The position numbers were made by a program, and so were the translations under genes. Of a stretch of DNA of 64,000 nucleotides, positions 9,680 through 32,229 are shown one piece after another. The notes under the pieces were generated by a model. The model made no database searches, was not told where the DNA came from, and saw nothing but the letters and a program-made list of their open reading frames with translations. The DNA lies in the NCBI GenBank assembly GCA_029242745.1, contig JAQWTI010000034.1:24-64023 (forward strand), read 5' to 3'. Source of the DNA: Acidimicrobiales bacterium. GTDB lineage: Bacteria > Actinomycetota > Acidimicrobiia > Acidimicrobiales > MedAcidi-G1. How positions within the stretch are numbered: the stretch's first letter is position 1; the number at the start of each line of letters is the position of its first letter.

Positions 9680-9705
9680 CCGGTGAGACTAAGGATGGAT
9701 TTGTA

Positions 9706-13829: not shown

Positions 13830-13854
13830 CGAATCTAGTGCGACATAATACTAT

Positions 13855-16072: not shown

Positions 16073-17092
16073 ATGCATGAGTTTTTACGTCGGATTCCAA
16101 AAGTCAGTCTGCACTGCCACCTAGAGGGATCGATCCAGCCCGAGACGGTTATCGATCTGTCGGTCAAGCATGGCATCGAGTTGCCCGACTACGACGATCC
16201 AGGCGACCTGTATAGCTACTCCGACATCTACGAATTCTTAAAGATGTACGACGTCGCCGCTCATTCAGTTCGGGACCACGACGATTTCCGGCGAGTTACC
16301 TACGAAACCCTCAAGGAGGCGGCCGATCACAGCGTGCGATATCGGGAGATGTTCTGGAGTCCAATGGCGCACATGGAGTCGGACGTCGCATACGGAACTG
16401 CGGTCGACGGCATTATCGAGGGCATGCAGGATGCAGAGGCCGACTTCGGCATTCAGTGCCGCTTAATTGCTGACATCAATCGGATGGATACGGCGGAGCA
16501 TGGGTACGAGATGGTTTCCATCATCGCCGAGAACCCTCGACCGGAGCTGATAGGAATCGGTCTGGATTACGCCGAGGCTGGCAACCCGCCTGAGAAGTTC
16601 GAGGCCGCATTTCAGTTGGCTGGCCAGAACGGGTTGCATCGCACGGCGCACTGCGCCGAGGACGGGCCGGCCGCCAACATCACTACAGCACTCGATCTCC
16701 TCAAGTGCGAGCGCATCGACCACGGCTACCACATCCTCGGTGATGACGCGGTGGTACAGCGCTGCGTGGAGGATGAGGTGGTTTTCACGTGTACGCCTAA
16801 ATCGACAGAGTGGGTGTATTTCGGTAATGGCATGGCTAATCACCCGATCAAAGAGATGGTGAGCCGAGGACTCAAGGTCATGATTGACTGCGACGACCCA
16901 CCGATGTTTAAGACGGACCCGACGAATGACTACATCGAGGCGGCTGACCACATGGGCTTCGATTCAGCAGATTTCAAGCGGTTTGTGCTCAACGGCATCG
17001 ATGGGTGCTGGATTGATGACAGCACACGTCAACAATGGCGACAGTCGTTTGGTGCGGAGATCGACGAACTAGCCACGCAACTAACGGACTAG
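16073..17092 (+). CDS. adenosine/adenine deaminase-family amidohydrolase, paralog 1
   Basis: ATG at 16073 gives MHEFLRRIPKVSLHCHLEGS (HxH metal motif). Also AHCAED (HAGE variant), RIDHGYH, DCDDPPMF. The ORF track opens at 16031. Confidence 0.8.
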   Translation: MHEFLRRIPKVSLHCHLEGSIQPETVIDLSVKHGIELPDYDDPGDLYSYSDIYEFLKMYDVAAHSVRDHDDFRRVTYETLKEAADHSVRYREMFWSPMAHMESDVAYGTAVDGIIEGMQDAEADFGIQCRLIADINRMDTAEHGYEMVSIIAENPRPELIGIGLDYAEAGNPPEKFEAAFQLAGQNGLHRTAHCAEDGPAANITTALDLLKCERIDHGYHILGDDAVVQRCVEDEVVFTCTPKSTEWVYFGNGMANHPIKEMVSRGLKVMIDCDDPPMFKTDPTNDYIEAADHMGFDSADFKRFVLNGIDGCWIDDSTRQQWRQSFGAEIDELATQLTD

Positions 17093-17150
17093 GTTCGGCT
17101 CCACCCTGCTGTTCGGGACGGTCGAGAAGGCGCCAGATTGGCGGCGACTG

Positions 17151-18407
17151 CTAATTGGTGCGCTTTCTCTCAACGAAGGGTAGTGCTCGTGTTGTTGCTC
17201 TGACTTCGCCGACCTCCTCACCCGCTTCTCGCCAAGCAAGCTTGACTTCCGTCCCTGGCTTGGCGGCCCGGGGGGCGATCCGGGCAAGTCCGATGAGGCC
17301 GTTTACGTTCGCGCTCCAGGCGATGCTGCCGACATGACCGACCGGAGTGCCGTCCAGTCTCAGTTCGAGCAGTGGGAACCGCTGGACACGTCCGGGGACT
17401 CGGGGCGGGCGGCCGGATGCCTCTTGAAGCGAGACGATGTCTCGCCAGTTGACCTCGATACCAACGAGCTTTGTCTTCGGGCCGCCGCCTTCGCGTTCAG
17501 CAACGAGGGCGTCGCGCCCGATGAAATCGCCCTTGTCGAAGTCGATGAAACGACCTGCGCCGATCTCGTCGGGAGTCGCCAACCATTGCACGGACTGCGG
17601 GCCGGTGGGGTCGCTGTCTTGCCTAGGGGCGTCCAGTCCCGCCAAGGTGTAGTCGATGACTGGTAGGACGAGACCTGCTTCGATTCGACACACGTCTTCG
17701 GAGGCGTCGCCCAAGTGTTCCAGTCCGTGGGGTTTTCCGGCTTCGACCAGAGCGTCGAACACGGGGAGCGCCCCATCGGAAGGGACCCACACTTCGAAGC
17801 CGCGTTCGCCTCCGAAGCCGACGCGCCACAGCCAGACGTCCACACCGGCCAGTTGCGTCTGAGCCCCGCGACCGAAACGCAGATCACTCCAATCTTGGCC
17901 AGTCGCGGCGGTGACGATATCGAACGCTGCGGGACCCTGCAGGTGGAGATTTCCCCAGTCGGTGGTCTCCTCTTCGATCTCGACATCGAACCCTTCGCGG
18001 TGTGCGGCGAACCAGTTATCCATAGGGCCGGATGTGTAGCAGTAGCGATCATCAGCGACGCGGAAGAGGACGCCGTCGATGATGACGTGACCGTCTTCAT
18101 CGCAGAACACGATGTATTTCGACACACCAACGTCCCAGGCGTCGACGTCTCGGATAATCAGGCGTTGGAGTAATGCAGCGGCGTCAGGTCCAGAGAAGAA
18201 ATACATCGACAACGGTGACTTGTCTTCGAGGACGGCGTGCTGGCGCATTGCGATGACGGCCGCCTCGTGGTTTCCAAACTCAGCCGGTCGCACGTAGACC
18301 TTCACGCCGTTCATCCAGTCGGACCATGTGCTGGATCTGTTCAACTGGGCATGGCGCGGGGTGAACGGCGTGACCGCCAAGGAGAGTTGGGGCTCATCGT
18401 TTGCCAT
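17151..18407 (-). CDS. GcvT-family aminomethyltransferase-like folate-binding protein
   Basis: 418-aa ORF with GcvT/DmdA-like layout (...LEDKSPLSMYFFSGPDA..., GFGGERGFEVW, CRIEAGL, C-terminal barrel). Divergent from the oxygenase operon. Confidence 0.7.
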   Translation of the reverse strand: MANDEPQLSLAVTPFTPRHAQLNRSSTWSDWMNGVKVYVRPAEFGNHEAAVIAMRQHAVLEDKSPLSMYFFSGPDAAALLQRLIIRDVDAWDVGVSKYIVFCDEDGHVIIDGVLFRVADDRYCYTSGPMDNWFAAHREGFDVEIEEETTDWGNLHLQGPAAFDIVTAATGQDWSDLRFGRGAQTQLAGVDVWLWRVGFGGERGFEVWVPSDGALPVFDALVEAGKPHGLEHLGDASEDVCRIEAGLVLPVIDYTLAGLDAPRQDSDPTGPQSVQWLATPDEIGAGRFIDFDKGDFIGRDALVAEREGGGPKTKLVGIEVNWRDIVSLQEASGRPPRVPGRVQRFPLLELRLDGTPVGHVGSIAWSANVNGLIGLARIAPRAAKPGTEVKLAWREAGEEVGEVRATTRALPFVERKRTN

Positions 18408-18945
18408 GGCAACCTTCCCTTCTCGTCTTGATACAGAGCGTGAGTCTAGTTCTGTTGAGCTGACCGAAGTTTAATTGGTGTGTTGACAGGTGAGCGTCGC
18501 GTCCCATCCTTCAGCAGTGCCAACGAGGCGCACGAGAAGATCGGCGGAATACCTCTGCTGTACCTCCACTGATCACAACAAGGTCACCATCCACGCTGCA
18601 CCTTGGACCTGACCGTTCCCGTCACCGAACTCAACAAGGAGGTCATCGCTGTTGTCAAACTAATCAGTAACAGATCAGAACCAAAAGAGGTTCCTCTCGA
18701 TTAACTCTCTGGCCGTTGGTGCTACCAGCGTGTCGCTCGATGGTCCTAGGAGTGCTTGATTTGCAGGGGTGATTTTGGAACAGGGACCTTCGCTCAGCTC
18801 TGAGAGTTGCATGCCAGCCCCGAAGCAGTGCTCTACGAGCCTCACTGCAAACTTCAGGTGGGGTAGTCTTGCAGGGCGGCTTTTGTTGATGCTTAAGTAC
18901 AGGCATGTGCGGAATTTAGGATTCGGGGGCTTGGAGCATCCTGTC

Positions 18946-19860
18946 ATGAACCTTCTAGGAAACCCAGAGGTATGTACGAACGGAGCCATTCTTGACCTTT
19001 GGCATCCGGTGGTTCCTACCAGTGAGATCGAAGTGGGAATAGTGCGGCAGGTGGTGCTGCTTGGGCAAGCAGTCAGTTACTCATTAACAGCGCCAGGGAC
19101 TTACTTTGCCTGGCGAACGGACCCTGCCATTCCCGCAGGAACAGTGTTTATGCCGTCGGTGGTAACTGAAAATCTTCCTGTTCTGCATCGGTATGGGTAT
19201 CTCTGGACAAGTCTTGGAGACCCAAGCGAAAGTCTCTTTGAAATTCCTGAATATGACGAACCAGATAGAAGAAATATCCACGCGGCGACGATTGGTGTCT
19301 ACTGCTCGGCGCCTCGGGCAGTAGAGAACTTTTTGGACTTGGGCCATTTTCCATACGTCCACACTGGGGTTCTAGGCATTGAGCCTCATACGGAAGTCGT
19401 CGAATACGACGTGCATGTAGATCCCGAGAACAATGAGCTCTGGGCTACTAACTGCCGCTTCTTTCAACCAATGGCGGCAGCCACCTCCACAACGGGCAAG
19501 ACGGTCGGGTACGAATTCCGGGTACCCCACCCTTACTGTTGTCTTCTCTACAAGACATCGCCTCTTGACAGCTCGCGTGTGGACGCAATTGGACTGTTTG
19601 TTCGATCGGTTGCTCCTGACTACATTGAGGCGAACATGTTTCTGAGCCTGCTTGATGAATCGAGTAGTGATTCGTTTATCCGCCAGTTCCAGCAATTAAT
19701 TTTTGCTCAGGACAAGCCCATCCTCGAAAATCAGAACCCAAAACTGCTACCGCTCGACCCTCGGGCCGAGACGCCTGTCCGGTCCGACAAGTTGGCAATC
19801 GCATATCGACGGTGGCTTTCTGACCTAGGCGTCACTTATGGCGTGCTTCCAAAGACTTGA
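18946..19860 (+). CDS. Rieske-less non-heme-iron oxygenase component (VanA/NdmC-like catalytic domain)
   Basis: ATG at 18946 with GGAG 9 nt upstream; the ORF track opens at 18769. Mononuclear iron motif ENFLDLGHFPYVH is present. The N-terminal WHPVV...RYGYLWTSLGDP frame of a Rieske domain is retained, but no CxH...CxxH ligands. Confidence 0.75.
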   Translation: MNLLGNPEVCTNGAILDLWHPVVPTSEIEVGIVRQVVLLGQAVSYSLTAPGTYFAWRTDPAIPAGTVFMPSVVTENLPVLHRYGYLWTSLGDPSESLFEIPEYDEPDRRNIHAATIGVYCSAPRAVENFLDLGHFPYVHTGVLGIEPHTEVVEYDVHVDPENNELWATNCRFFQPMAAATSTTGKTVGYEFRVPHPYCCLLYKTSPLDSSRVDAIGLFVRSVAPDYIEANMFLSLLDESSSDSFIRQFQQLIFAQDKPILENQNPKLLPLDPRAETPVRSDKLAIAYRRWLSDLGVTYGVLPKT

Positions 19861-19864
19861 GCCG

Positions 19865-21625
19865 ATGAGTAAAAGTTTGACGAATCTCTGGCATCCGATC
19901 GCGAGCGCTGAGGACCTGCCGTATCGCCACATCTTCCAGGGCCAGTTGCTTGGTCGTGAGCTTGCCGTGTGGCGAGCCGATGACGATTTTGTCAACATCT
20001 GGGAGAATCGCTGTCTGCATCGCGGTGTGCGACTCTCGATCGGGAGGAACGAGGGGCTTGAGCTTAAGTGTCAGTATCACGGCTGGCGCTACGCCAATCG
20101 ATCGGCTGGCTGTACCTACATTCCTGCTCATCCAGCGGACGCACCGGCTCGTACCATCTGCAACCGAACATTCCCGGTCTGTGAACGTTACGGACTGATC
20201 TGGTCGGGGGAGGACCCAACGGGAGATCCTCCTGAGATTTCACTCTTAGAGAAAGGTCGAACGCTCCCGTTGCGGAGCATCGCGGTCAACGCATCGCTGA
20301 ATCTCGTCCTGGAACACCTAGCCAACTATCGCTTTTCCCTCAACGGTGATCCTGGAAACCTTGCCGTGACCACTGCGGACTATCTGGACCAGTGTTCTCT
20401 TTCGGTAACTGCGACTTGCGATAGCAAACAATCGACAGTCCTCTTCTTCGTTCAGCCGGTTGACTCAAATCGATCCGTGATTCGAGGCGTCCTTTGCAGC
20501 AGCCCAACGGATTCTGAGCGGCTCCTGACGCTGCGACATCACAGCACGGAATTGTCTCACCTCCGCGAGAAAGTCGAACTCGACGCCCTTAAGGCCCCGC
20601 TGATTCAGCCAATGACGCCCACTATCGAACAGGTTCCTATCACCAGTTACGAAATAATGATGCCTTCTTCTGGTCGTAAGGCATCACTCCGCGTGCAAGT
20701 GCTTCGCAAATGGGTGACCGCCGAAGGGATTGTGGGTCTGGAACTCGAATCGATCGGCAAACCTCTACCAACTCCCCAGCCTGGCGCCCATATCGACGTG
20801 CACCTGCCCAATGGGTTGGTGCGGCAGTATTCGCTGACAAATGCACCAGGGCAGGGATCGCTATATCGGCTGGGGGTCAAACTTGAATCAGATTCACGTG
20901 GTGGTTCTTCCTGCCTCCACGAAACGGTCAAAGAAGGAGACGTCTTAGCCATTTCTGAGCCGCGGAACAACTTTTCGCTACGCCGCGACGCCGTGAAGAC
21001 GCTCTTGGTGGCTGGTGGGATCGGAGTGACGCCCCTGTTGTCAATGGCTCACACGCTAAGAAACAACAAATTAGACTACGAACTGCATTACTTCGCACAG
21101 ACCGATGGGCATCTCGCCTTTCCTGAGGTACTGCAGGAGTTTGGTGATGCAGTAGTGCTCCATCTCGGCCTATCGCCAGAGGCAACGAGCAAGGAACTGA
21201 CTGCGTTGCTTTTGGGATACAAGTCAGCAATGCACGTCTATGTATGTGGACCTGGACCCATGCTCGAGGCCGCTCGCCGTATTGCTTCTGAGGAGGGTTG
21301 GCCTGATACGGCCGTGCACTTTGAGTATTTCAGGAACACCATCGAGATTGACAGTTCATCTTCGTTCGAAGTCAGTTTGGCCAGATCAGCCCTCACACTT
21401 GAGATTCCGAGCGGCAAGACTATTCTCGAGATTCTTCGCGCAAACGGCATAACACTGATGTCGTCCTGTGAGCAAGGTGCATGTGGCACGTGCGAAGTAC
21501 CGGTGGTCGAAGGTGACCCAGAACATCAAGATGTCTACCTCAACGACTCAGAGAAGGCGGCAGGTCAGAGAATCATGACTTGTGTCTCTCGTGCGAAGTC
21601 GCCCCGTCTGGTTCTAGACATCTAG
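19865..21625 (+). CDS. Rieske [2Fe-2S] + FNR-like flavin/NAD(P)H + plant-type [2Fe-2S] ferredoxin fusion reductase (NdmD-like)
   Basis: Starts 4 nt after the previous stop. Rieske CLHRG...CQYHGW. FNR-like RQYSLTN, LLVAGGIGVTP, YVCGP. C-terminal CEQGACGTC...C ferredoxin motif. Confidence 0.8.
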   Translation: MSKSLTNLWHPIASAEDLPYRHIFQGQLLGRELAVWRADDDFVNIWENRCLHRGVRLSIGRNEGLELKCQYHGWRYANRSAGCTYIPAHPADAPARTICNRTFPVCERYGLIWSGEDPTGDPPEISLLEKGRTLPLRSIAVNASLNLVLEHLANYRFSLNGDPGNLAVTTADYLDQCSLSVTATCDSKQSTVLFFVQPVDSNRSVIRGVLCSSPTDSERLLTLRHHSTELSHLREKVELDALKAPLIQPMTPTIEQVPITSYEIMMPSSGRKASLRVQVLRKWVTAEGIVGLELESIGKPLPTPQPGAHIDVHLPNGLVRQYSLTNAPGQGSLYRLGVKLESDSRGGSSCLHETVKEGDVLAISEPRNNFSLRRDAVKTLLVAGGIGVTPLLSMAHTLRNNKLDYELHYFAQTDGHLAFPEVLQEFGDAVVLHLGLSPEATSKELTALLLGYKSAMHVYVCGPGPMLEAARRIASEEGWPDTAVHFEYFRNTIEIDSSSSFEVSLARSALTLEIPSGKTILEILRANGITLMSSCEQGACGTCEVPVVEGDPEHQDVYLNDSEKAAGQRIMTCVSRAKSPRLVLDI

Positions 21626-21634
21626 GGCGTGGTG

Positions 21635-22294
21635 ATGATCAAACTCTTCGATTACATCCTTTCAGTGAACTGCTATAAGCAGAGATTGATAATGAGCATC
21701 CTGGACGTGCCCTTTGAGTCGATACCCGTCGACTTCTACCCGGGATTGGAACACAAGGGTGAGGAGTTCAAGAAGATCAATCCACTTGGGCATATACCGG
21801 TCATCGACGACGACGGCTTCATGCTGCGAGATGCCCACGCAATCCTCGTATATCTCGCGTCAAAGTACGACCCAACCGGCCTTTGGTACCCAGTTAACTC
21901 CCCAGAGCTCGTTGGCGAAACTACCCAGTGGATGCTTTTTGCTGAAGGAACCACCAACACGGCTTCTGCGGCTCGTCTGCACGTGAACCTCGGTTACGAA
22001 TTCGACATTGATTCGTGTCGAGAGGGAGCCCACCGTCTGTTTCGCGTACTCGACGAGCATCTTTGGTTCAGAGAGCAAGAAAACCGGGACTGGGTGTGTT
22101 CAGGCGAACACCCCACCATCGCTGATATCGCGATATTCCCTGATGTAATCCTCTCCGAGGAAGGGGGTATTGCCCGTATCGATTACCCAGCGATTCGAAG
22201 GTGGACCGATCGGGTGAAACGACTTCCCGGGTTCCTGCCTATGCCGGGAATCTTCCCAACAGCTGATGCTCGGCCGCTATCTCACGAAGTTTGA
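21635..22294 (+). CDS. glutathione S-transferase-like protein (NdmE-like position)
   Basis: Thioredoxin-like N-domain (INPLGHIPVIDDDGFMLRDAHAILVYLA) plus a helical C-domain. Starts 9 nt after the reductase stop. Confidence 0.75.
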   Translation: MIKLFDYILSVNCYKQRLIMSILDVPFESIPVDFYPGLEHKGEEFKKINPLGHIPVIDDDGFMLRDAHAILVYLASKYDPTGLWYPVNSPELVGETTQWMLFAEGTTNTASAARLHVNLGYEFDIDSCREGAHRLFRVLDEHLWFREQENRDWVCSGEHPTIADIAIFPDVILSEEGGIARIDYPAIRRWTDRVKRLPGFLPMPGIFPTADARPLSHEV

Positions 22295-22554
22295 CCGGTC
22301 GCCCGCAGGAAGGAATTCCTTTCCCGTTCGGTCGTTTGAAAGGCAGGCGGCGGGCTTCGCTGATGCGAGTTGGCGGTTATTCCTAAACTCTTTCTACAAA
22401 CGCAAAGCAGGTGAGTCAGATACCAGAGGGCGGCTCAACCTCTCTGCTAGTGGAGAGTTGTTATCGTTCCCGTATCGCTTCAGAGTTATTTTGCTCTGAC
22501 CTTGCGTACTGACTTGCAGCGAGTTGTTGCAGAAAAGACTGGGGGGTAGACAAG

Positions 22555-23586
22555 TTGGACTATGCCGAGTTCTTACGGAAGATCCCAAAGGTCGAGTTGC
22601 ACTGCCACCTTGAGGGGAGCGTGCGAGCAACAACGGCCGTCGAACTTGCTAAGAAGTACTCAGTTCGCCTTCCGACCTACGAGCCGGAAGAGTTGTACCA
22701 GTACGAAGGAATCGTTGAGTTCCTCGAACGCTACATCCAGATATCTCATGCCATTATTGACCGTGAGGACTTTGCCCGTATCGCCTACGAAGCACTGGCG
22801 GATGGAGTGGCATTTGGCAACCTCCGTTATCGGGAGATGTTCCTGAACCCGACGAACCACTATGCCGACGGCGTGTCCTACGACACCGTGATCGATGGGG
22901 CTATCGATGGGATTCGGCAGGCAGAGCGGGATTATGGGGTTCAATGCCGACTGATCGTCGGCATCAATCGAGCGGAGTCTCCAAGTGATGCCGTCACCCT
23001 TGTTCAGCAGGTCGTCGATTCACCGCGCGATGAGGTAGTCGGGATTGGTCAGGACCATCTGACCCCTGACAACGAGGAAAATCCAGGCCGGTTCACTGAG
23101 GCGTACAGGCTCGCTGTAGCAAATGGATTAAACATCACCGCTCATGCCGGTGAGATCGACTCCTCGACCTCTGCGGATGTCGCAGCGGCTCTTGATCTGG
23201 GGTGTTTGCGCATTGATCACGGCTACAAGATTCTCGAAGACTCAGAACTCTTAAAGCGGGCTCGTGACAACAATGTTTATTTCACGTGCTGTCTCTTCTC
23301 GAGCAGGATTCTCTCCGGTTGGCACGATCTCGCAAATCATCCGATTCGACACATGATTGACGCGGGGCTCAATGTGACACTCAATACCGACGACCCGACA
23401 ATGATGAACACCCACATCGGGAAAGAGTACGAGGAGGGTTGCGTGGAGATGGGCCTTGGTCTGGACCAGGTGATAAAAATCGTGTTCAATGGCGTCGATG
23501 CTGCGTGGATGAATGGTGCCGACAAACAGGCACTACGCCATGAGTTTGAAGAAGCGATTAACTCACTCGGCTCCGAGTTGAATTGA
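22555..23586 (+). CDS. adenosine/adenine deaminase-family amidohydrolase, paralog 2
   Basis: TTG start with a G-rich RBS. ELHCHLEGS, ITAHAGE, RIDHGYK, LNTDDPTMM. Confidence 0.8.
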   Translation: MDYAEFLRKIPKVELHCHLEGSVRATTAVELAKKYSVRLPTYEPEELYQYEGIVEFLERYIQISHAIIDREDFARIAYEALADGVAFGNLRYREMFLNPTNHYADGVSYDTVIDGAIDGIRQAERDYGVQCRLIVGINRAESPSDAVTLVQQVVDSPRDEVVGIGQDHLTPDNEENPGRFTEAYRLAVANGLNITAHAGEIDSSTSADVAAALDLGCLRIDHGYKILEDSELLKRARDNNVYFTCCLFSSRILSGWHDLANHPIRHMIDAGLNVTLNTDDPTMMNTHIGKEYEEGCVEMGLGLDQVIKIVFNGVDAAWMNGADKQALRHEFEEAINSLGSELN

Positions 23587-23691
23587 CCCTCTGGAGATGG
23601 CTTACAGTGCGACAAAGCCTCAACCTGCGAGCCGAGTTCCGTGGGAAGCCAACTGCGACCAGCATTGCCTGTCTAATCTAGGAGGGTCTCG

Positions 23692-24720
23692 ATGAACATT
23701 GACGAAGCACTCCGCCTGATGCCAAAGACGGAACTTCACCTCCATCTTGAGGGGGCGGTGGACTCAACTACGTTCGCTGAACTTGCAGCGAAACACAGAC
23801 TTGAATTGCCGCCTCATGCCGTGGCGTCAGATCTTTACGAGTACGACAGCTTGGCTGATTTCCTTGATGTGTACTCGTTGGTGTCTCACTCGATACGAGA
23901 TCGTGATGATTTCCAGAGGGTGACCTACGAATGTCTTGAGCGCTGCGTGAACAGCGGTGCACGGTATGTCGAATTATTTTTTAGCCCCGAGTCGCACCTT
24001 CAAGTTGGAGTTAGTTACGAGACAATGCTTGAGGGCGTGCTCCAGGGTGTGGAAGATATCCAAGTAGACCTCGGTTTGGTTAGCAACCTCGTACCCGCGA
24101 TTAATCGTGAACTTGGCGGATATAGGGCCGTGGAATTTGTTCAGATGGTGGCGGACCACCGCCACGATCGAATAATTGGTGTGGGGCTGGATTTCAACGA
24201 GTTGGGCCACCCACCAGAAGCCTTCGTGGACGCCTTCCGTCTGGCCAGCCAAGTCGGCTTACATCGCACATCCCACGCTGGTGAGGTCGGACCCGCGCAG
24301 AACATTCGAACCGGAATCGAACTCCTTGATTGCCAAAGAGTCGACCATGGCTACAACATCGTGGAGGACGCTCGTTTGCTTGCAGATTGCGCGGCTAGCC
24401 AGATTCCTTTCACTGCATGTCCAACAACGACCACTTACACGAGTGCCTTTCGTGATCTAGGAGCCCCTGACCACGCAATTCGTCAAATGGCCGATGCAGG
24501 TCTAAAACTCACCATCAACTCTGACGATCCGCCAATGTTTGGTATCGATCTGGCAATGGAGTACTGCACCCTTTATCACCAGATGGGTTTCACTCCAGAC
24601 GACCTCAAGACGTTTGCGCTCAACGGCATCGATGCGGCGTGGATCGATGACCAAACTAAACGAGAATGGCGCTCCACCTGGAGCAACGAAATTGATGGCC
24701 TCCTTAGTCAGGTGGTCTGA
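23692..24720 (+). CDS. adenosine/adenine deaminase-family amidohydrolase, paralog 3
   Basis: AGGAGGG RBS. ELHLHLEGA, TSHAGE, RVDHGYN, INSDDPPMF. Confidence 0.8.
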   Translation: MNIDEALRLMPKTELHLHLEGAVDSTTFAELAAKHRLELPPHAVASDLYEYDSLADFLDVYSLVSHSIRDRDDFQRVTYECLERCVNSGARYVELFFSPESHLQVGVSYETMLEGVLQGVEDIQVDLGLVSNLVPAINRELGGYRAVEFVQMVADHRHDRIIGVGLDFNELGHPPEAFVDAFRLASQVGLHRTSHAGEVGPAQNIRTGIELLDCQRVDHGYNIVEDARLLADCAASQIPFTACPTTTTYTSAFRDLGAPDHAIRQMADAGLKLTINSDDPPMFGIDLAMEYCTLYHQMGFTPDDLKTFALNGIDAAWIDDQTKREWRSTWSNEIDGLLSQVV

Positions 24721-24941
24721 TCTTCAGGGGAAAGACTGGAATTAATTTGATCCACGAGTTCGCCGCGGAGACCGCATCTTCAGGGCTGAGATTTTAGATC
24801 GAGTATCGCCTCAATGTCTTGAATCGGTCCAGTTTTGGCCTTTTCCTATGGCCCCTGGGCCGAGAAAGCCTCAGAGCGCTGCCACTGCTAATGTGCGCAA
24901 TGTTGTTTGGGGCGAGAGGCTGGAGAAACAAAACTGTGGAC

Positions 24942-25961
24942 ATGGAGGCCTTTCTAAAAGCCATTCCAAAGGTGAGTCTGCATCTTCACTTGATGGGTTC
25001 GGTGCAGGCGCGTACCGCTGTGGAATTGTGTCAGAAACATGGGGTGGTACTGCCGGATTTTGAGGAGCCAGAGGATCTCTACGACTATCCAGACATTTAC
25101 AAGTTTCTCCACATGTATGACAACACTGCTCTTGGTGTGGTCGATAGAGAAGATTTTGAGCGAATTTGCTACGAGACCCTAAGCGAAGCGGCGGACCACA
25201 ACGTTCGCTACCGCGAAATGTCCTTTAACCCCACCACGCATATGGCGGCCGGCGTGGATTATGGGACTTGCGTCGACGGTCTCATTGATGGCATCAACGC
25301 GGCTCGGACCGATTATGGCATCGAGTGTCGCCTGGTCGCTGCAGTGAACCGGATGGAAAGTCCCGAACTCGCCGTCGAGATGGTCGAGACAATGCTGGCA
25401 AATCCCCGAGACGAGGTAATCGGAATTGGCTTGGACTACGCGGAGGACTCAGGGACCTCACCCGAGAGATTCTGGAAGGCCTATGGGATGGCACGCCGCG
25501 CTGGATACCGGTTGACAGCACACGCATCTGAGGCTGAACCACCTCGCAACATCGAGACGTGTTTAGATCTATTGGGCTGTGAGCGCGTTGACCACGGCTA
25601 TCACGTGGTCGAAAGTGAAGATGTGATGCGGCGCTGCCGAGACGAAGGCGTTGTTTTCACCTGCACCCCGGTTTCGACAGCATGGGTTTACTTTGATAAC
25701 GACTTTGACAACCACCCAATCGAACGCATGCGCGAATTTGGTTTGAAAATCAGCTTGGATTGCGATGATCCACCGATGTTCAAGACGGATCCAACAAAAG
25801 ACCTGGTCATGGCCCACAACCACATGGGCTTCGAAGTAGAGGACTTCCGACAGTGCATGCTTAACGGTATCGACGGGGCTTGGATTGACGAACCCGACAA
25901 GCGGTCAATGAGACGCCATTGGTCGACAGAGTTTGATGACCTGGCTGCGAATTTGGCCTAA
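24942..25961 (+). CDS. adenosine/adenine deaminase-family amidohydrolase, paralog 4 (variant motifs)
   Basis: ATG at 24942 gives MEAFLKAIPKVSLHLHLMGS. Also TAHASE, RVDHGYH, LDCDDPPMF. Closest to paralog 1. The ORF track opens at 24819. Confidence 0.75.
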   Translation: MEAFLKAIPKVSLHLHLMGSVQARTAVELCQKHGVVLPDFEEPEDLYDYPDIYKFLHMYDNTALGVVDREDFERICYETLSEAADHNVRYREMSFNPTTHMAAGVDYGTCVDGLIDGINAARTDYGIECRLVAAVNRMESPELAVEMVETMLANPRDEVIGIGLDYAEDSGTSPERFWKAYGMARRAGYRLTAHASEAEPPRNIETCLDLLGCERVDHGYHVVESEDVMRRCRDEGVVFTCTPVSTAWVYFDNDFDNHPIERMREFGLKISLDCDDPPMFKTDPTKDLVMAHNHMGFEVEDFRQCMLNGIDGAWIDEPDKRSMRRHWSTEFDDLAANLA

Positions 25962-26044
25962 GGTCGGAAGTAATATGTGCAATAGGGATTTAAGTAGTTG
26001 ACAAACTAGAGATACGACCGATAACGGGGAATGGGGCTTACTAA

Positions 26045-27214
26045 ATGAATAAGAATCAAACGGGAGGATTGCACCTTCCACCTTCTGCAAGTGGACCTGG
26101 TTACAGCCGGCGAGATGCACTTCGGCTAGGAGCCATTGGTGTTGGTGGCCTCGCCATAGGTGGTTCACTTCTGGCTGCTTGCGGCTCGGACGATTCTAGC
26201 ACAGGCGCCTCTGGCGGAGCCAAGGAGAGCATTAAGGCACATTGGGTCTACATCGGACCGCCTGACGATCAGGGTTGGACCCAGCGACACCATGAGGGCT
26301 ACTTGGCTGCTGTGGCTGCGATGGGGGACAAGATGGTTTCCGGGTACACACCCAACATAGGGTTCGACGCAGGCACCACTCAGCTCTTCCAGCAACTGGT
26401 AGATGACAAGAACGACATCATCTTTATGAACACGGAATACTCCGGACTCATGAGTGAGGTAGCGGACGCCAACCTTCAGGTGAAGTGGGCTGAGACCAAC
26501 GGCCATCATTTCACTGAGAACTGCTTTGGTTACTACCTCGCCCACGAAACCACTGCCTATCTGCTCGGAGTTGCAGCAGCTCATCTTGCTGACAATGGGC
26601 GGATTGGTTACATCGGAGCGTTTCCGACTGCGACTGCCTACAACGATGTCAATGGCATGCTCCTAGGGGCACGATCGGTTAACCCCGAGGCAACCGTTGA
26701 GACGGTTATGGTCAGCACGTTCTATGACCCTCAGGCGGCTGCGCAGGCATCTGACGCCCTGCTCAACAACGGTGTGGACTTCTTGTTTGGAGTGATGGAT
26801 GAACCAACCTTCCTCAACCTTGCAGAAGAGGCTGGCGTCTGGACTGGCTACTGGAACGGCGACTTCCCTGAGCAGGCGCCGAACATGTACACAGCCGGTT
26901 TCGATATCGGTCACGGCCTTGGCCCGTTCTACACCCAGCAGTGCCAAGCGGTTCTTAATGGTTCATGGGTCGCTCCAAGCGTGGCCACACTTCTTGACAC
27001 GCCACTGGGCGACTGGGGTCCAAAGGTTCCTCAGGACGTCAAAGATGCGGTCGCCGCAGCTGACGCTGCGCTGAAGAGTGGCGATCTCCACGTCTACGAA
27101 GGTCCGCTTATGGACAACAAGGGCAACCAGGTCTTGGCTGCCGGCGAGACAATTGACTCTCTGGGCGCCTACGAAATCAACTGGGCAGTTGAAGGCGTGT
27201 CGGGACTGGAGTGA
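26045..27214 (+). CDS. BMP-family (PnrA/Med-like) ABC substrate-binding lipoprotein, nucleoside/purine type
   Basis: Tat-like SRRDAL plus lipobox LLAACGS. The BMP-family body is a by-eye call (IGYIGAFP, FLFGVMDEP). Confidence 0.7.
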   Translation: MNKNQTGGLHLPPSASGPGYSRRDALRLGAIGVGGLAIGGSLLAACGSDDSSTGASGGAKESIKAHWVYIGPPDDQGWTQRHHEGYLAAVAAMGDKMVSGYTPNIGFDAGTTQLFQQLVDDKNDIIFMNTEYSGLMSEVADANLQVKWAETNGHHFTENCFGYYLAHETTAYLLGVAAAHLADNGRIGYIGAFPTATAYNDVNGMLLGARSVNPEATVETVMVSTFYDPQAAAQASDALLNNGVDFLFGVMDEPTFLNLAEEAGVWTGYWNGDFPEQAPNMYTAGFDIGHGLGPFYTQQCQAVLNGSWVAPSVATLLDTPLGDWGPKVPQDVKDAVAAADAALKSGDLHVYEGPLMDNKGNQVLAAGETIDSLGAYEINWAVEGVSGLE

Positions 27215-28746
27215 TCGAACCGGATCATTCGTATGCCGTCGAGGCGCGGGGCATTTCCAAGTATTTCGGAGGTGTCGCCGCCCTCGACGGTGTCGACTTT
27301 AAAGTTCATTGGGGCGAGGTCCATGCTCTCCTAGGTGAGAACGGTGCTGGAAAGACCACACTTTCCAACATTCTTGCTGGCATATATCGGGCGGACTCAG
27401 GTGAGATTGCCGTTGATGGACTCACCCATGAGGTTCGCACGCCTGCCCAGGCGATCGAAGCTGGAATTGGAATGGTTCACCAGCATTTCAAGCTCGTCGA
27501 AACTATGACAGTGGCCGAGAACGTCCACCTCGGTTGGCCTGATACCCCAACCTTGGTCAGCCAGCGGGTGTTGGTAGACCGGACTAACCATTTGATGGAA
27601 GAAATCGGACTTCATGTCGACCCGACTGCGAAGGTCTGGCAATTGTCGGTTGGAGAACAACAGCGAGTTGAGATCCTTAGAGTGTTAGCGCGAGGAGCCC
27701 AAATACTCATCCTCGACGAACCCACGGCGGTCCTGACTTCCCACGAAGCCAGAGACTTGTTCAAGGTCATGCGCGACCTCGTTTCGGGCGGCCGGACAGT
27801 CATCTTCATAAGTCACAAACTGAATGAAGTGCTCGAAGTTTCCGATCAGATCACAGTTCTCCGCGACGGGGTTCATGAGGTCACACGTTCGGCTGAAGGA
27901 GCGACACCGCGAGAGCTGGCACGGTTGATGACTGGTGAGGAAAGAACTCTTGAGGTTGAACATCGAGAGATTACGGGAGAAACTGTTCTGCAGCTCGAGG
28001 GTGTAACGGCGAGCAATGACCGCGGCGTTGTTGCTCTCAGCAGCGTTGATCTAGTAGCGCGGTCAGGTGAAATTCTTGGAATAGCCGGGGTGTCTGGCAA
28101 CGGCCAGACTGAACTTGCTGAGGTCATCTCAGCTATGCGCAGAGTGGACGGCGGGACAATCACTGTTGATGGCGAAGATGTTGCCAATGGCCTGGTCCGG
28201 AAGGTCACCGACCTTGGAGTTGGTCATATACCAGAGGATCGCATCGGTGTTGGCATAGTTGGGTCAGCCTCCGTTAAGGACAACGCTGTTCTCAGGCACT
28301 ACTGGACTGAGGGGTTATCGAGTGGCGTCACGCTGTTTCGCCAGGCAGTTGTCGACTTTGCGACCCGCTTGGTCGAAGTTGCTCGCGTGCAAACCCGATC
28401 AATTACTGCCACTGCCGGTCAGATGTCAGGGGGGAATCAGCAGCGTCTCGTAGCCCGACGTGAGGCCCTATTAGCGACCCGAGTGCTGATAGCCGTTCAC
28501 CCCACGCGTGGTCTAGACGTGCTTGCTGCTCAAGAGGTGCAAACCGCCGTAATCGGACAGCGCGATAGAGGTGCAGCTGTTCTCTTCATCTCGGACGATC
28601 TCGATGAAGTTCTCCTGATGAGTGACCGGATTGCAGTGATGTACGAAGGGCGCATCATGGGGATCTTCGATCGGGTAGATGCAGATCGTGAGGCGATTGG
28701 TTTGATGATGGGCGGCCACACGCTCGAAGAAGCGATGGCTAAATGA
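27211..28746 (+). CDS. ABC transporter ATP-binding protein, duplicated-domain (ribose/nucleoside type)
   Basis: GTGA overlap with the SBP stop. Walker A GENGAGKTT and degenerate GVSGNGQTE. Signatures LSVGEQQR and MSGGNQQR. Confidence 0.9.
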   Translation: MIEPDHSYAVEARGISKYFGGVAALDGVDFKVHWGEVHALLGENGAGKTTLSNILAGIYRADSGEIAVDGLTHEVRTPAQAIEAGIGMVHQHFKLVETMTVAENVHLGWPDTPTLVSQRVLVDRTNHLMEEIGLHVDPTAKVWQLSVGEQQRVEILRVLARGAQILILDEPTAVLTSHEARDLFKVMRDLVSGGRTVIFISHKLNEVLEVSDQITVLRDGVHEVTRSAEGATPRELARLMTGEERTLEVEHREITGETVLQLEGVTASNDRGVVALSSVDLVARSGEILGIAGVSGNGQTELAEVISAMRRVDGGTITVDGEDVANGLVRKVTDLGVGHIPEDRIGVGIVGSASVKDNAVLRHYWTEGLSSGVTLFRQAVVDFATRLVEVARVQTRSITATAGQMSGGNQQRLVARREALLATRVLIAVHPTRGLDVLAAQEVQTAVIGQRDRGAAVLFISDDLDEVLLMSDRIAVMYEGRIMGIFDRVDADREAIGLMMGGHTLEEAMAK

Positions 28747-30805: not shown

Positions 30806-30823
30806 GGCAAAGAGGTCATTGCT

Positions 30824-31926: not shown

Positions 31927-32217
31927 GTGGCCCACACTGTCTTCGTAGAGTTTAGATGTCAGCCAGGAAAGAGGGAAAAGCTCCTCTCGTCGCTCCTGCC
32001 TGCGTTGGATGAAACGAGAGCCTTCGCTGGCTGTCGTTCAATCGATACTTATGTTGATTGCAACGACCCTGACTTGGTGTTGCTTTGGGAGCATTGAGAT
32101 GCGGCTCACGATCATGCCGCCTACATGGCATGGCGGACTGAGGAAGGGCTGCTCGATCGACTCGGTCCGTTGTTCCGTGGAGATGCACGGGTCGTTCACA
32201 TGAATAAAGCTCTGTAG
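31927..32217 (+). pseudogene. ABM (antibiotic-biosynthesis-monooxygenase-like) domain gene interrupted by one in-frame TGA at 32095..32097
   Basis: My own translation from the GTG at 31927: VAHTVFVEFRCQPGKREKLLSSLLPALDETRAFAGCRSIDTYVDCNDPDLVLLWEH*DAAHDHAAYMAWRTEEGLLDRLGPLFRGDARVVHMNKAL*. The 96 codons match ABM-domain length and pattern. Both halves fall below the 60-aa ORF-track cutoff. Confidence 0.6.
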
Positions 32218-32229
32218 GGGAAAGTTCGA

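What the first reader, a model, noticed from the sequence alone, without database searches (positions are those of the whole stretch)
16073..25961. Four adenosine/adenine-deaminase-family paralogs within 10 kb, three in tandem, all with non-canonical substrate-pocket motifs
All four paralogs retain the metal and catalytic scaffold. Their motifs are:
- P1 (16073..17092): HCHLEGS / AHCAED / RIDHGYH / DCDDPP
- P2 (22555..23586): HCHLEGS / AHAGE / RIDHGYK / NTDDP
- P3 (23692..24720): HLHLEGA / SHAGE / RVDHGYN / NSDDPP
- P4 (24942..25961): HLHLMGS / AHASE / RVDHGYH / DCDDPP

None has the classical HxHLDG motif. From memory, that Asp (Asp19 of murine ADA) contacts the ribose 5'-OH. Three paralogs have Glu there and P4 has Met.

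The classical DLAGDE substrate loop is replaced by LDYAEAGNPP, QDHLTPDNEENP, LDFNELGHPP and LDYAEDSGTSP.

P1 and P4 form one subtype and share ADHNVRYREM, VVFTCTP.ST.WVYF and DCDDPPMFKTDPT. P2 and P3 are each distinct.

ADA-fold enzymes are known to hydrolyse adenine, N6-methyl-AMP, N6-substituted adenines (cytokinins) and other aminopurine analogues. Such an array suggests a set of specificities for different modified purines rather than redundancy.
Basis: partly seen in the sequence, partly recalled or inferred. Interest (0 to 1): 0.75.

Follow-up and report, generated by a model that had tools for sequence, protein, structure and literature searches.

The report
Four diverged purine deaminases, oxygenase island
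A marine actinobacterial genome fragment carries four anciently diverged relatives of adenine deaminase next to a purine-base importer and caffeine-demethylase-like oxygenases, which looks like a toolkit for using several different modified purines whose identities are still unknown.

Summary
Four intact A_deaminase (PF00962) genes lie at the stated coordinates, are 38-55% identical to each other, and keep all seven metal-binding and catalytic residues.

The framing needs correcting. HxHLEG plus LD..E..PP is the normal signature of the cog1816 adenine-deaminase lineage (PA0148, AAur1117), not an oddity.

What is distinctive:
- All four fall in a strongly supported (100/100), functionally uncharacterised sister branch typified by the structural-genomics entry 4GXW. 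Its marks are DHGY, INR, an aromatic residue or His where ADA has the Gly of DLAGDE, and a Trp-rich C-terminus.
- Each paralog has its own cross-phylum orthogroup with its own conserved pocket residues. P4 orthologs have Met in 38 of 41.

Context points the same way:
- P2-P3-P4 sit in one co-directional gene string with an NdmCDE-like split Rieske oxygenase, a second Rieske oxygenase, a 2OG oxygenase, and a Bmp-type ABC importer whose nearest solved homologs bind free purine bases.
- A GcvT-like gene is divergently placed.
- Such deaminase, oxygenase and importer modules recur across phyla, sometimes alongside a canonical adenine deaminase, which argues against redundancy.

The best reading is a set of free-base 6-aminopurine hydrolases for different substituted purines. 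No substrate is known.

The parts
16073..17092 (+). P1, ADA-family hydrolase of the P1/P4 (DCDDPPMF, GLDYAE) type. Glu follows HxHL.
   Evidence: PF00962 E 5e-71. Best PDB hit 4GXW at 1.7e-65. P1 orthogroup has 6/6 Glu. P1-like genes lie next to a Bmp-ABC transporter in L069 and L079, with an XDH-family gene also in L079.
17151..18407 (-). GcvT-like folate-binding aminomethyltransferase homolog, divergently oriented to the oxygenase/deaminase string.
   Evidence: PF01571 and PF08669. Best NCBIfam match is the C-terminal part of TMAO demethylase, then GcvT, DesA and LigM, all below cutoff. GcvT-like genes sit beside P3-type genes in 8 of 78 loci.
18946..19860 (+). NdmC-like oxygenase catalytic subunit. 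It has the VanA_C domain only and no Rieske cluster ligands. The longest ORF starts at 18769; the likely start is the ATG at 18946.
   Evidence: Pfam VanA_C only. No CxH...CxxH, but DLGHFPYVH and QD iron ligands are present. PDB hits: SxtT/SxtDIOX at 1e-25 to 1e-26, NdmA at 1e-14. It is 57% identical to a Sinorhizobium pSymA gene and 41-43% to P. putida and K. pneumoniae plasmid genes in ndmCDE-like strings.
19838..21625 (+). NdmD-like reductase: N-terminal Rieske domain, FNR-like module and C-terminal plant-type [2Fe-2S].
   Evidence: Pfam Rieske, NAD_binding_1 and Fer2. CLHRG...CQYHGW and CEQGACGTC motifs. PDB hits: phthalate dioxygenase reductase at 4e-59 and the NdmD ferredoxin domain 6ICM_D at 5e-20.
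21629..22294 (+). NdmE-like glutathione S-transferase-fold protein.
   Evidence: GST_N and GST_C domains. It follows the NdmC-like and NdmD-like genes, in the same order as the P. putida ndmCDE description.
22555..23586 (+). P2, ADA-family hydrolase of a rare type (GQDH..., AHAGEIST, NTDDP).
   Evidence: PF00962 E 1e-66. Only about 14 database clusters are at least 55% identical. A P2-type gene is adjacent to a P4-type gene and Bmp-ABC in L090 too.
23692..24720 (+). P3, ADA-family hydrolase of the type most widely linked to oxygenases (GLD[FY]NE, NSDDPPMF).
   Evidence: PF00962 E 9e-75. 5765 hits, with orthologs in Acidimicrobiia, Verrucomicrobiota, Alpha- and Gammaproteobacteria and Acidobacteriota. 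41 of 78 species-level loci have a homologous oxygenase within 10 kb.
24942..25961 (+). P4, ADA-family hydrolase. Met replaces the Glu/Asp after HxHL.
   Evidence: PF00962 E 4e-66. Best PDB hit 4GXW at 7e-77. Met in 38 of 41 non-redundant orthologs, Leu or Ile in 2. Abundant in ocean metagenomes (P0135 occurs in 86 index blocks) and always next to Bmp-ABC.
26045..30805 (+). Bmp-family ABC importer: binding protein 26045-27214, double ATPase 27211-28746, permeases 28743-29825 and 29822-30805.
   Evidence: Pfam Bmp, ABC_tran x2 and BPD_transp_2 x2. The binding protein's best solved homologs are 3S99 (adenine modelled) and AtzT (guanine Kd 0.11 uM, adenine 2.5 uM, GTP not bound), both at E about 1e-45.
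30824..31816 (+). Second oxygenase, a complete Rieske + VanA_C alpha subunit of the NdmA/B, VanA or HpxD-like class.
   Evidence: Pfam Rieske and VanA_C. CPHRG...CPYHGW and DLAHFPFVH motifs. 33% identical to the oxygenase next to hpxO on pKF715A.
31927..32217 (+). ABM-type small monooxygenase ORF, interrupted in this window by TGG>TGA at 32095-32097.
   Evidence: Called as a 96-aa PF03992 gene on the near-identical contig L001. The window differs at 2 of 419 bases, and one change creates a stop.
32230..33213 (+). 2-oxoglutarate/Fe(II) oxygenase (DIOX_N type).
   Evidence: PF14226 and PF03171. PDB hits: an ethylene-forming-type enzyme at 2e-40 and thymine dioxygenase at 1e-36. 32% identical to the 2OG oxygenase following ndmCDE-like genes on pKF715A. 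Homologs lie next to P3-type genes in 13 of 78 loci.

Best explanation
The window comes from a marine Acidimicrobiales MAG and carries an uptake-and-conversion island for purine bases.

Shown:
- Four intact zinc-amidohydrolase genes belong to the adenine-deaminase side of the ADA family. They fall in an uncharacterised '4GXW-like / DHGY' branch, and each represents a different old orthogroup.
- P2, P3 and P4 are co-directional with an NdmCDE-like split Rieske oxygenase, a Bmp-type ABC importer, a second Rieske oxygenase and a 2OG oxygenase.
- P1 and a GcvT-like gene flank this string.

Inferred mechanism:
1. The importer brings in free purine bases.
2. Each deaminase uses the conserved His3/Asp metal site, the HxxE Glu (proton to N1), the DHG His and the DD pair to add water at C6 and expel ammonia, or an amine or other leaving group. 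This gives a 6-oxopurine.
3. The paralogs differ in which ring or N6 substituents they accept. They carry different, orthogroup-conserved residues at the positions homologous to ADA Asp19 (Glu in P1-P3, Met in P4), to the Gly of DLAGDE (Tyr, His, Phe, Tyr) and at several other loop positions.
4. The oxygenases, fed by the NdmD-like reductase, then remove N-methyl groups as formaldehyde, which the GcvT-like protein passes to folate. Alternatively, or in addition, they hydroxylate the ring toward xanthine and urate.

The most likely substrate class is substituted adenines, such as ring- or N6-methylated, 2-substituted or 8-substituted forms. Which ones is unknown.
For: - Family and catalytic residues.
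- Closest solved proteins are 4GXW (E 1e-63 to 1e-77), then the adenine deaminases 3OU8 and 3RYS. Adenosine deaminases are much further away.
- NJ tree with 100 bootstraps: the DHGY branch containing P1-P4 and 4GXW scores 100, the canonical ADE clade 100, and P1+P4 99.
- Orthogroup-conserved pocket differences, including Met in 38 of 41 P4 orthologs.
- Across 50%-identity representatives of the branch, the Asp19-equivalent position is E/L/M/I/V/A/T/G/F/N/Q. The Gly184-equivalent position is Y/F/G/A/H/D/S/C.
- Non-redundancy: a canonical ADE is encoded beside P3- or P4-type genes in L004/L008, L007, L009 and L089, and a cog1001 adenine deaminase lies near P3-type in Kaistia.
- Context in the window.
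- Recurrence of P3-type with NdmC/D/E-like, Rieske or 2OG oxygenases and Bmp-ABC. It is seen in Kaistia, Mesorhizobium, Aminobacter, Roseibium, gammaproteobacterial, verrucomicrobial and acidobacterial genomes, in 41 of 78 loci.
- NdmCDE-like strings elsewhere sit with hpxO, an NCS2 nucleobase permease, Tsx/OmpK and a Bmp binding protein.
- The binding protein's nearest solved relatives bind free adenine or guanine.
- The NdmCDE architecture (oxygenase without Rieske, reductase with an extra Rieske, GST partner) matches the published description.
Against: - No substrate was tested, and no characterised enzyme was shown to lie inside the DHGY branch. Specificity is therefore inferred from residues and neighbours only.
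- Many P3 orthologs in Acidimicrobiia stand alone, without oxygenases or a transporter.
- Rieske and DIOX_N-type oxygenases near purine genes may be ring hydroxylases of the HpxDE kind rather than demethylases. That weakens the 'methyl' part of the reading.
- The GcvT-like gene accompanies only 8 of 78 loci.
- P1 is separated from the string by an opposite-strand gene, and its co-regulation is unknown.
- The trees are simple NJ trees on identity-based distances.
- Pocket positions were assigned by homology to ADA from established knowledge, not from a model with ligand.
Confidence: 0.55

Rival explanations
1. Redundant or condition-specific isozymes. All four are ordinary adenine deaminases that differ only in regulation, kinetics or metal preference, and the array simply boosts adenine use.
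For: All keep the full catalytic set. P1-P3 keep the Glu typical of adenine deaminases. The window holds no canonical ADE, so one of them could fill that role.
Against: - Identity is 38-55%, with separate cross-phylum orthogroups.
- Differences at pocket-loop positions are conserved within each group.
- P3- and P4-type genes co-reside with a bona fide PA0148-type ADE in the same strings elsewhere.
- The GLDSxE, DHG[VI]R and NSDDPAYF signature of proven ADEs is absent from all four.
Confidence: 0.12
2. A plain purine-oxidation island. The oxygenases are HpxDE-like or 2OG purine ring hydroxylases (hypoxanthine to xanthine to urate), not demethylases. The deaminases then handle oxidised or aminated adenines such as isoguanine, 8-oxoadenine or 2,6-diaminopurine, rather than methylated ones.
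For: - Rieske and DIOX_N-type dioxygenases, deaminases and tsx are the genes regulated by the xanthine riboswitch. The authors of that work proposed them to act on purines and related them to hpxDE.
- NdmCDE-like strings on pKF715A sit next to hpxO and a nucleobase permease.
- XDH-family genes adjoin related arrays (L004, L023, L089).
Against: - The three-part NdmC/NdmD/NdmE architecture is so far tied experimentally only to N7-demethylation of 7-methylxanthine.
- A folate-dependent GcvT-like gene is divergently placed next to it.
- The closest PDB relatives of the 2OG enzyme include thymine dioxygenase, a nucleobase methyl oxidase.
- No Rfam xanthine riboswitch is present.
Confidence: 0.22
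3. Nucleoside- or nucleotide-level enzymes. The paralogs act on modified adenosines or AMP derivatives (as ADA or ADAL/MAPDA do), and the Bmp transporter imports nucleosides.
For: Bmp/PnrA-family binding proteins are often nucleoside receptors (Pfam name). NCBIfam labels all four 'adenosine deaminase'.
Against: - They are sister to free-base adenine deaminases and far from Add, ADA and ADAL structures. Hits to 6N91 and 1A4L are E 1e-27 to 1e-38 and to 8QCH 5e-12, against 1e-63 to 1e-77 for 4GXW.
- None has the ribose-contacting Asp of HxHLDG.
- The binding protein matches the purine-base binders 3S99 and AtzT at 1e-45, but the nucleoside/riboflavin-type Bmp proteins only at E above 1e-4.
- No nucleosidase or phosphorylase is found in the string.
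Confidence: 0.07
4. Non-purine heterocycle catabolism (aminotriazines, aminopteridines, aminopyrimidine-like metabolites). The ADA-fold enzymes displace amino groups from other rings.
For: One of the two closest solved relatives of the binding protein is the hydroxyatrazine- and ammeline-binding AtzT. Amidohydrolase deaminases have repeatedly been recruited to s-triazines.
Against: AtzT itself is judged a purine binder that accepts triazines promiscuously. The triazine hydrolases named in that literature are relatives of guanine deaminase, not of ADA. The neighbours hpxO, the NCS2 permease and XDH elsewhere point to purines.
Confidence: 0.04

Closest known systems
cog1816 adenine deaminases PA0148 (PDB 3OU8/3PAO) and AAur1117 (3RYS)
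   Same: Same fold and the same seven catalytic and metal residues. They share HxH[LI]EG, G.D..E...PP and the DDP motif. They form the sister clade in the tree.
   Different: Only 28-36% identical. The window proteins have DHGY instead of DHG[VI]R, and Tyr/His/Phe instead of Ser after GLD. They have INR instead of FLR, PPMF or PTMM instead of PAYF, and a roughly 20-residue Trp-rich C-terminal extension.
PDB 4GXW, a Burkholderia ambifaria cog1816 'adenosine deaminase' from structural genomics (no functional paper found)
   Same: Best solved match to P1, P3 and P4, covering the C-terminal extension. It has DHGY, GIDY.E..PP and a hydrophobic residue (Leu) after HxHL, as P4 does.
   Different: 36-42% identical. 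It sits on its own sub-branch with P0389 and P0390. Its function is unknown, so it gives a fold but no activity.
Cytokinin deaminase Patl2390 (Paraglaciecola sp. T6c; cog1816 group 3)
   Same: A cog1816 enzyme that rejects adenine and adenosine but hydrolyses N6-methyl- and N6,N6-dimethyladenine. This is the kind of activity proposed here. P3-type orthologs exist in three Paraglaciecola species.
   Different: The 90% cluster of the Paraglaciecola P3-type proteins contains no T6c entry, so membership of any paralog in its group is untested.
NdmCDE N7-demethylase of Pseudomonas putida CBB5 (caffeine pathway)
   Same: The same unusual three-gene architecture in the same order: an oxygenase lacking the Rieske cluster, a reductase carrying an extra Rieske domain, and a GST-like partner. 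A separate complete Rieske oxygenase (NdmA/B-like) lies nearby. Homologs of unknown function in Sinorhizobium and Mesorhizobium were already noted in 2013.
   Different: NdmC and NdmE sequences could not be compared directly. NdmA matches at only E 1e-14. Here the module is joined to ADA-family deaminases and a Bmp importer rather than to ndmA, ndmB and frmAB. Its substrate is unknown.
HpxDE hypoxanthine/xanthine hydroxylase of Klebsiella, and the dioxygenases linked to the xanthine riboswitch
   Same: Rieske-type and DIOX_N-type oxygenases encoded with purine deaminases and transporters.
   Different: HpxDE is a two-component system with no GST partner and no split Rieske domain (own knowledge). 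No xanthine riboswitch is found in the window. Sequences were not compared.
Purine-binding Bmp proteins 3S99 and AtzT
   Same: The cluster's binding protein matches both over about 330 residues at E about 1e-45. Both hold free purine bases.
   Different: Ligand-contact residues were not compared, so the ligand here may be a substituted purine.

Membership tests
Adenosine/adenine deaminase family (Pfam PF00962, amidohydrolase superfamily, COG1816) | Full-length match to the family profile | tested here: met
   All four score E 1e-66 to 1e-75 over about 320 of 330 profile positions, and exceed the TIGR01430 cutoff.
Adenosine/adenine deaminase family (Pfam PF00962, amidohydrolase superfamily, COG1816) | Metal ligands (HxH, His of HxxE, first Asp of DD) and catalytic Glu, His and second Asp | tested here: met
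   H, H, H, E, H, D and D are present in P1-P4 in the alignment columns they share with 3OU8, 4GXW and 6N91.
Classical adenosine deaminase (Add/ADA) | HxHLDG with the ribose-contacting Asp, a DLAGDE loop, and closest similarity to Add/ADA | tested here: not met
   Glu, Glu, Glu and Met replace the Asp. The loop is GLDYAE, GQDHLT, GLDFNE or GLDYAE. Identity to Add (6N91) is 25-30%. NCBIfam Add-type equivalogs score far below their cutoffs.
Canonical cog1816 adenine deaminase (PA0148/AAur1117 type) | Placement in the PA0148/3RYS clade with GLDS.E, DHG[VI]R and NSDDPAYF | tested here: not met
   The four fall in the sister DHGY clade (bootstrap 100), and the ADE clade (bootstrap 100) excludes them. 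Motifs differ. NF006850 scores 208-262 bits against a cutoff of 419.
Canonical cog1816 adenine deaminase (PA0148/AAur1117 type) | Deamination of adenine but not adenosine | not testable with these tools
   Needs enzyme assays.
4GXW-like 'DHGY' branch (uncharacterised) | Monophyly with 4GXW; DHGY; an aromatic residue or His after G.D; the C-terminal NG[IV]D..W...........W extension | tested here: met
   Bootstrap is 100 for the clade of 57 taxa. The motifs are present in all four, although P2 lacks the second Trp.
Cytokinin / N6-alkyladenine deaminase (Patl2390 group) | Sequence membership in cog1816 group 3 together with Patl2390 | not tested
Paraglaciecola P3-type proteins were found, but T6c is not in their cluster.
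NdmCDE-type split Rieske oxygenase | An oxygenase subunit with a 2-His-1-carboxylate site but no Rieske ligands | tested here: met
   Only VanA_C is detected. DLGHFPYVH and QD are present, and no CxH/CxxH pair is found.
NdmCDE-type split Rieske oxygenase | A reductase with an additional Rieske [2Fe-2S] domain plus flavin/NAD and plant-type ferredoxin modules | tested here: met
   Rieske (res. 18-99), NAD_binding_1 and Fer2 (res. 516-587), with CLHRG..CQYHGW.
NdmCDE-type split Rieske oxygenase | An adjacent GST-like third subunit | tested here: met
   A GST_N/GST_C protein is encoded 4 nt after the reductase gene.
NdmCDE-type split Rieske oxygenase | N7-demethylation of 7-methylxanthine; complex formation | not testable with these tools
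   These are biochemical properties. Direct sequence comparison with NdmC and NdmE was also not possible, because neither is in the PDB and the paper is not held.

The most novel reading that the evidence does not exclude
The 4GXW-like/DHGY branch is a large, unrecognised radiation of modified-purine-base hydrolases. This island, together with its relatives in ocean metagenomes, rhizobia and plasmids, would then be a dedicated 'modified nucleobase utilisation locus'. In this reading a free-base importer feeds a panel of specialised C6-hydrolases, with substrates such as 1-, 3-, 7- or 9-methyladenine, N6-alkyladenines, and 2-amino- or 2-oxo-adenine. NdmCDE-like demethylases then strip the remaining ring N-methyl groups. 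That would finally give a natural, non-caffeine function to the widespread ndmCDE homologs. It would also reveal a route by which marine and soil bacteria recycle the modified bases released from RNA and DNA turnover.
Probability: 0.3. Interest if true: 0.75.

Novelty: new variant of a known kind. Interest (0 to 1): 0.6.

Why it matters
Enzymes that prefer alkylated over plain nucleobases are few and were each a notable discovery. Examples are the N6-methyladenine, cytokinin and 5-methylcytosine deaminases, and in 2026 the N2,N2-dimethylguanine hydrolases.

This work identifies a whole sister branch of adenine deaminase with a solved structure but no assigned function. It also identifies four co-encoded representatives whose pocket residues differ in a conserved way. 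The same locus ties them to ndmCDE homologs that have been 'of unknown function' since 2013.

Two of the types (P3, P4) are common in ocean metagenomes, so the substrates may be a real component of marine dissolved organic nitrogen. Cultured carriers exist (Kaistia, Mesorhizobium, Aminobacter, Sinorhizobium pSymA, P. putida pKF715A), so the hypothesis can be tested directly.

Tried and rejected
- Rfam scan of the whole window for a purine, xanthine or other riboswitch: no hit.
- Promoter and terminator consensus scan of 15.7-34.4 kb: counts no different from shuffles, so uninformative for operon limits.
- Placing Patl2390:
  - The paper (PMC3199332) is not held.
  - An exact-cluster look-up of the Paraglaciecola P3-type proteins returned no T6c member.
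  - The citing paper gives no residues.
- The Summers 2013 ndmCDE paper is not held.
- NCBIfam has no specific model for the NdmC-like, RO2 or 2OG proteins.
- The Zn-ADH downstream (33269-34288) was checked as a possible formaldehyde dehydrogenase. It is closer to threonine or inosose dehydrogenases, so it was not used as evidence.
- The 'TIM barrel protein' in the plasmid ndmCDE-like strings was checked as a possible deaminase. It is xylose-isomerase-like, not ADA-fold.
- Literature searches for this cluster (methylpurine with Rieske and deaminase; 7-methylguanine demethylase; 4GXW) found nothing relevant.
- Structure prediction was not run. The tool returns no coordinates, so the pocket could not be inspected, and sequence matches to solved structures already settle the fold.

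Full report
**1. What is there**

- Each matches Pfam PF00962 end to end (E 1e-66 to 1e-75) and exceeds the TIGR01430 cutoff.
- The more specific NCBIfam 'adenosine deaminase' equivalogs all score far below their cutoffs. The best is NF006850 at 208-262 bits against 419.
- The paralogs are 38-55% identical to each other, and there is no fifth copy in the 64 kb.
- In a 459-sequence alignment all four keep the two His of HxH, the His and Glu of HxxE, the His of DHG and both Asp of DD. All four therefore look catalytically competent.

**2. Whose genome**

The P2 and P3 proteins are 100% identical to NCBI entries named 'MAG: adenosine deaminase [Acidimicrobiales bacterium]' on a 65-kb contig. A near-identical Logan metagenome contig (L001) carries the same gene string.

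**3. The motifs in context**

Residue-level alignments to solved structures were examined.
- The proven adenine deaminases PA0148 (3OU8) and AAur1117 (3RYS) read HLH[LI]EG / GLDS[SA]EVG.PP / AHAGEEGP / RIDHG[VI]R / NSDDPAYF.
- Bacterial Add (6N91, 6N9M) reads HRHLDG / DLAGDE / HAGE / IGHG / NTDDP.
- So the Glu after HxHL and the LD..E...PP loop are the normal marks of the adenine-deaminase lineage. They are not deviations.

The features that do set the four apart from proven adenine deaminases are:
- DHGY;
- Tyr (P1, P4), His (P2) or Phe (P3) at the position of the Gly in DLAGDE, where adenine deaminases have Ser;
- an INR motif where adenine deaminases have FLR;
- PPMF or PTMM instead of PAYF;
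- a Trp-rich C-terminal helix (NGIDxAWxDDxxKxxWRxxW);
- in P4, Met instead of Glu.

These features are shared with the best PDB hit of P1, P3 and P4. That hit is 4GXW, a Burkholderia ambifaria structural-genomics entry with HCHLLGA (E 1.7e-65, 1e-62 and 7e-77). I found no functional paper for it.

**4. Phylogeny**

I combined several sequence sets:
- the window proteins;
- five PDB sequences transcribed from the HMMER alignments;
- 348 database homologs of P2, P3 and P4;
- 102 ADA-family ORFs from 83 fetched loci;
- later, 50%-identity representatives from an exhaustive search with P1.

NJ trees with 100 bootstraps give these clades.

| Clade | Bootstrap |
|---|---|
| Add | outgroup |
| Canonical ADE clade | 100 |
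| Sister 'DHGY' clade holding P1-P4 and 4GXW (57 taxa) | 100 |
| P1+P4, within the DHGY clade | 99 |

Within the DHGY clade, P2, P3, 4GXW and a large actinobacterial GMDGAEAPDPP group are separate lineages. The four paralogs are therefore old, distinct orthogroups, not local duplicates.

It is not met.

**5. Pocket divergence is conserved**

- Within non-redundant orthogroups the residue after HxHL is Glu in P1 (6/6), P2 (11/11 scored) and P3 (85/90). In P4 it is Met in 38 of 41, with Ile or Leu in two.
- Columns that are at least 70% conserved inside every group but differ between groups include the positions below (P3 numbering, in the order P1/P4/P2/P3/canonical ADE).

| P3 position | P1 | P4 | P2 | P3 | Canonical ADE | Note |
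|---|---|---|---|---|---|---|
| 98 | S | N | N | S | D | |
| 168 | Y | Y | H | F | S | equivalent of the Gly of DLAGDE |
| 199 | D | D | I | V | E | just after HxxE |
| 277 | C | C | T | S | S | before DD |

- By homology to mouse ADA, the first two kinds of position line the substrate site. Asp19 contacts the ribose 5'-OH and Gly184 contacts N3. This rests on established knowledge and was not modelled here.
- Across 50%-identity representatives of the whole DHGY clade, these two positions run through E/L/M/I/V/A/T/G/F/N/Q and Y/F/G/A/H/D/S/C. That is the pattern of a specificity radiation.

**6. Neighbours in the window**

P2, P3 and P4 lie in one co-directional string. In order, it contains:
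- an oxygenase with only the VanA_C catalytic domain. The iron ligands are present and there are no Rieske Cys/His ligands;
- a 595-aa reductase with an N-terminal Rieske domain, an FNR module and a plant-type ferredoxin;
- a GST-fold protein;
- P2, P3 and P4;
- a Bmp-family ABC importer;
- a complete Rieske/VanA_C oxygenase;
- a small ABM ORF, interrupted here by a stop;
- a DIOX_N-type 2OG oxygenase.

Upstream, a GcvT-like folate protein is divergently oriented, and P1 lies beyond it.

The first three genes reproduce the architecture published for NdmCDE, the 7-methylxanthine N7-demethylase of P. putida CBB5. The review describing it calls that architecture unique among Rieske oxygenases. 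It also notes ndmCDE homologs of unknown function in 18 organisms, mainly Sinorhizobium and Mesorhizobium.

The binding protein's two closest solved relatives (E about 1e-45) are 3S99, deposited with adenine, and AtzT. AtzT binds guanine at 0.11 uM and adenine at 2.5 uM, and does not bind GTP. This points to free bases rather than nucleosides.

**7. Recurrence elsewhere**

A scan of one genome per GTDB species with a P3-ortholog profile returned 78 loci. I searched their ORFs with the window proteins.
- 41 of 78 loci have a homologous oxygenase within 10 kb: 31 a Rieske-type part and 13 the 2OG enzyme.
- 31 of 78 have the ABC importer.
- NdmC-like plus GST plus Bmp-ABC plus P3-type occurs in Kaistia, Mesorhizobium, Aquibium, Roseibium and several proteobacterial MAGs.
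- A Rieske oxygenase plus reductase plus P3-type occurs in Aminobacter and Mesorhizobium.
- 2OG plus P3-type occurs in Acidobacteriaceae.
- A Verrucomicrobiales MAG carries almost the same island. It has P4-type (84%), P3-type (72%), GST (84%) and transporter (68-79%), plus a canonical ADE, a cog0402-type amidohydrolase and XDH.
- P4 orthologs are abundant in ocean assemblies and always sit beside Bmp-ABC. They often come with a fifth ADA type and two cog0402-type amidohydrolases.
- One 2-Mb contig has P4-type, the importer, a Rieske oxygenase, the fifth type, a canonical ADE (56% to PA0148) and an NdmC-like gene in a row.
- P2-type is rare, but is again found next to P4-type and Bmp-ABC.

The repeated presence of a canonical adenine deaminase in the same string is the strongest argument that the DHGY-type enzymes are not simply adenine deaminases. 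A cog1001 adenine deaminase near the Kaistia cluster points the same way.

**8. The oxygenase module in cultured bacteria**

The NdmC-like protein has 57% identical homologs on Sinorhizobium pSymA. There it sits in a GntR / Bmp-ABC / 2x VanA_C-only / Rieske-reductase / GST cluster.

It has 41-43% identical homologs on P. putida pKF715A and a K. pneumoniae plasmid. In those the string is Rieske oxygenase, xylose-isomerase-like TIM barrel, NdmC/D/E-like genes, then a 2OG oxygenase. The pKF715A copy sits with hpxO, a Bmp binding protein and OmpK/Tsx, and both plasmids carry an NCS2 nucleobase permease nearby.

These are purine-catabolic surroundings. They independently tie the module to purine bases.

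**9. What the oxygenases do is open**

- Against demethylation: the xanthine-riboswitch study reports that Rieske-type and DIOX_N-type dioxygenases, deaminases and tsx form its regulon. It relates them to Klebsiella hpxDE, which oxidises hypoxanthine and xanthine, and stresses that their functions are not established. Ring hydroxylation is therefore a serious alternative.
- For demethylation: the NdmCDE-specific architecture, the divergent GcvT-like gene, and a 2OG enzyme whose PDB relatives include thymine dioxygenase. None of these is decisive.

**10. Verdict**

- 'Different specificities rather than redundancy' is well supported by phylogeny, conserved pocket differences and gene context.
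- 'Non-canonical motifs' is over-stated for the Glu and the PP loop.
- 'Modified or methylated purines' is a reasonable but untested inference.

The proteins are new members of a known superfamily, in a branch without an assigned function. One caveat applies: the cytokinin deaminase Patl2390 could not be placed, and P3-type genes do occur in its genus. The combination with NdmCDE-like genes is not described in the literature I could search.

I rate the finding a new variant of a known kind, of moderate-to-good interest. It gives concrete, testable candidates for new modified-purine hydrolases, and for the natural role of ndmCDE homologs.

Noticed in passing
window 31927-32217 (stop at 32095-32097); L001 12800-13090: The small ABM-type monooxygenase gene between the second Rieske oxygenase and the 2OG oxygenase is intact on the near-identical metagenome contig L001. 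In the window it carries a TGG>TGA change, one of only 2 differences in 419 bases. This could be a pseudogene, a strain variant or an assembly error.
   Followed up: partly
window 18001-26000 vs flanks; L004/L008: G+C in the oxygenase/deaminase part is 0.53-0.54, against 0.595-0.60 just upstream. A Verrucomicrobiales MAG carries the same island with 62-84% protein identity. This suggests inter-phylum transfer, or mis-binning of one of the contigs.
   Followed up: partly
L087 7844-8896; L089 16158-17207: A fifth ADA-family type accompanies P4-type genes in abundant marine contigs, flanked by two cog0402-type amidohydrolases. Its motifs are HCH[VI]EG, G[AM]DSVER, DHG[YF]R and NSDDPGMM, and it is 34-39% identical to P1-P4. 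Deaminase arrays around Bmp importers therefore seem to be a general marine pattern.
   Followed up: partly
L064 9997-11709; proteins P0459, P0473, P0475: An ADA-like clade near the canonical ADE group has [MC]H[VC]DQ in place of HAGE. The catalytic Glu is replaced by Gln, so it is possibly not a deaminase. One copy sits by a P3-type gene and Bmp-ABC.
   Followed up: no
L084 (S. meliloti pSymA) 5355-15352: The model rhizobium carries a GntR / Bmp-ABC / two VanA_C-only oxygenases / Rieske-reductase / GST cluster with no deaminase, and an XDH-family enzyme lies nearby. It is a tractable system for finding the substrate of ndmCDE-like modules.
   Followed up: no
L085 (P. putida pKF715A) and L086 (K. 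pneumoniae plasmid): The same RO, TIM-barrel, NdmC/D/E-like and 2OG string, followed by a group II intron, occurs on conjugative plasmids of two genera. IS elements also flank the K. pneumoniae copy. The module is therefore mobile.
   Followed up: no
window 18408-18945: An intergenic region of about 540 nt lies between the divergent GcvT-like gene and the likely start of the NdmC-like gene. It has no Rfam match, and no regulator gene was identified among the annotated ORFs from P1 to the 2OG gene (16073-33213). It might hold an unrecognised regulatory element.
   Followed up: no
window 44191-46467: The molybdopterin enzyme 11 kb downstream scores better against the glyceraldehyde dehydrogenase and aerobic CODH models than against the XDH models, all below cutoff. 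It should not be counted as part of a purine pathway without further evidence.
   Followed up: partly
window 10463-15752: Upstream of P1 lies an unrelated-looking block: a family III CoA-transferase, two acyl-CoA dehydrogenases, an Amidohydro_2 (lactonase-like) protein and an SDR.
   Followed up: no
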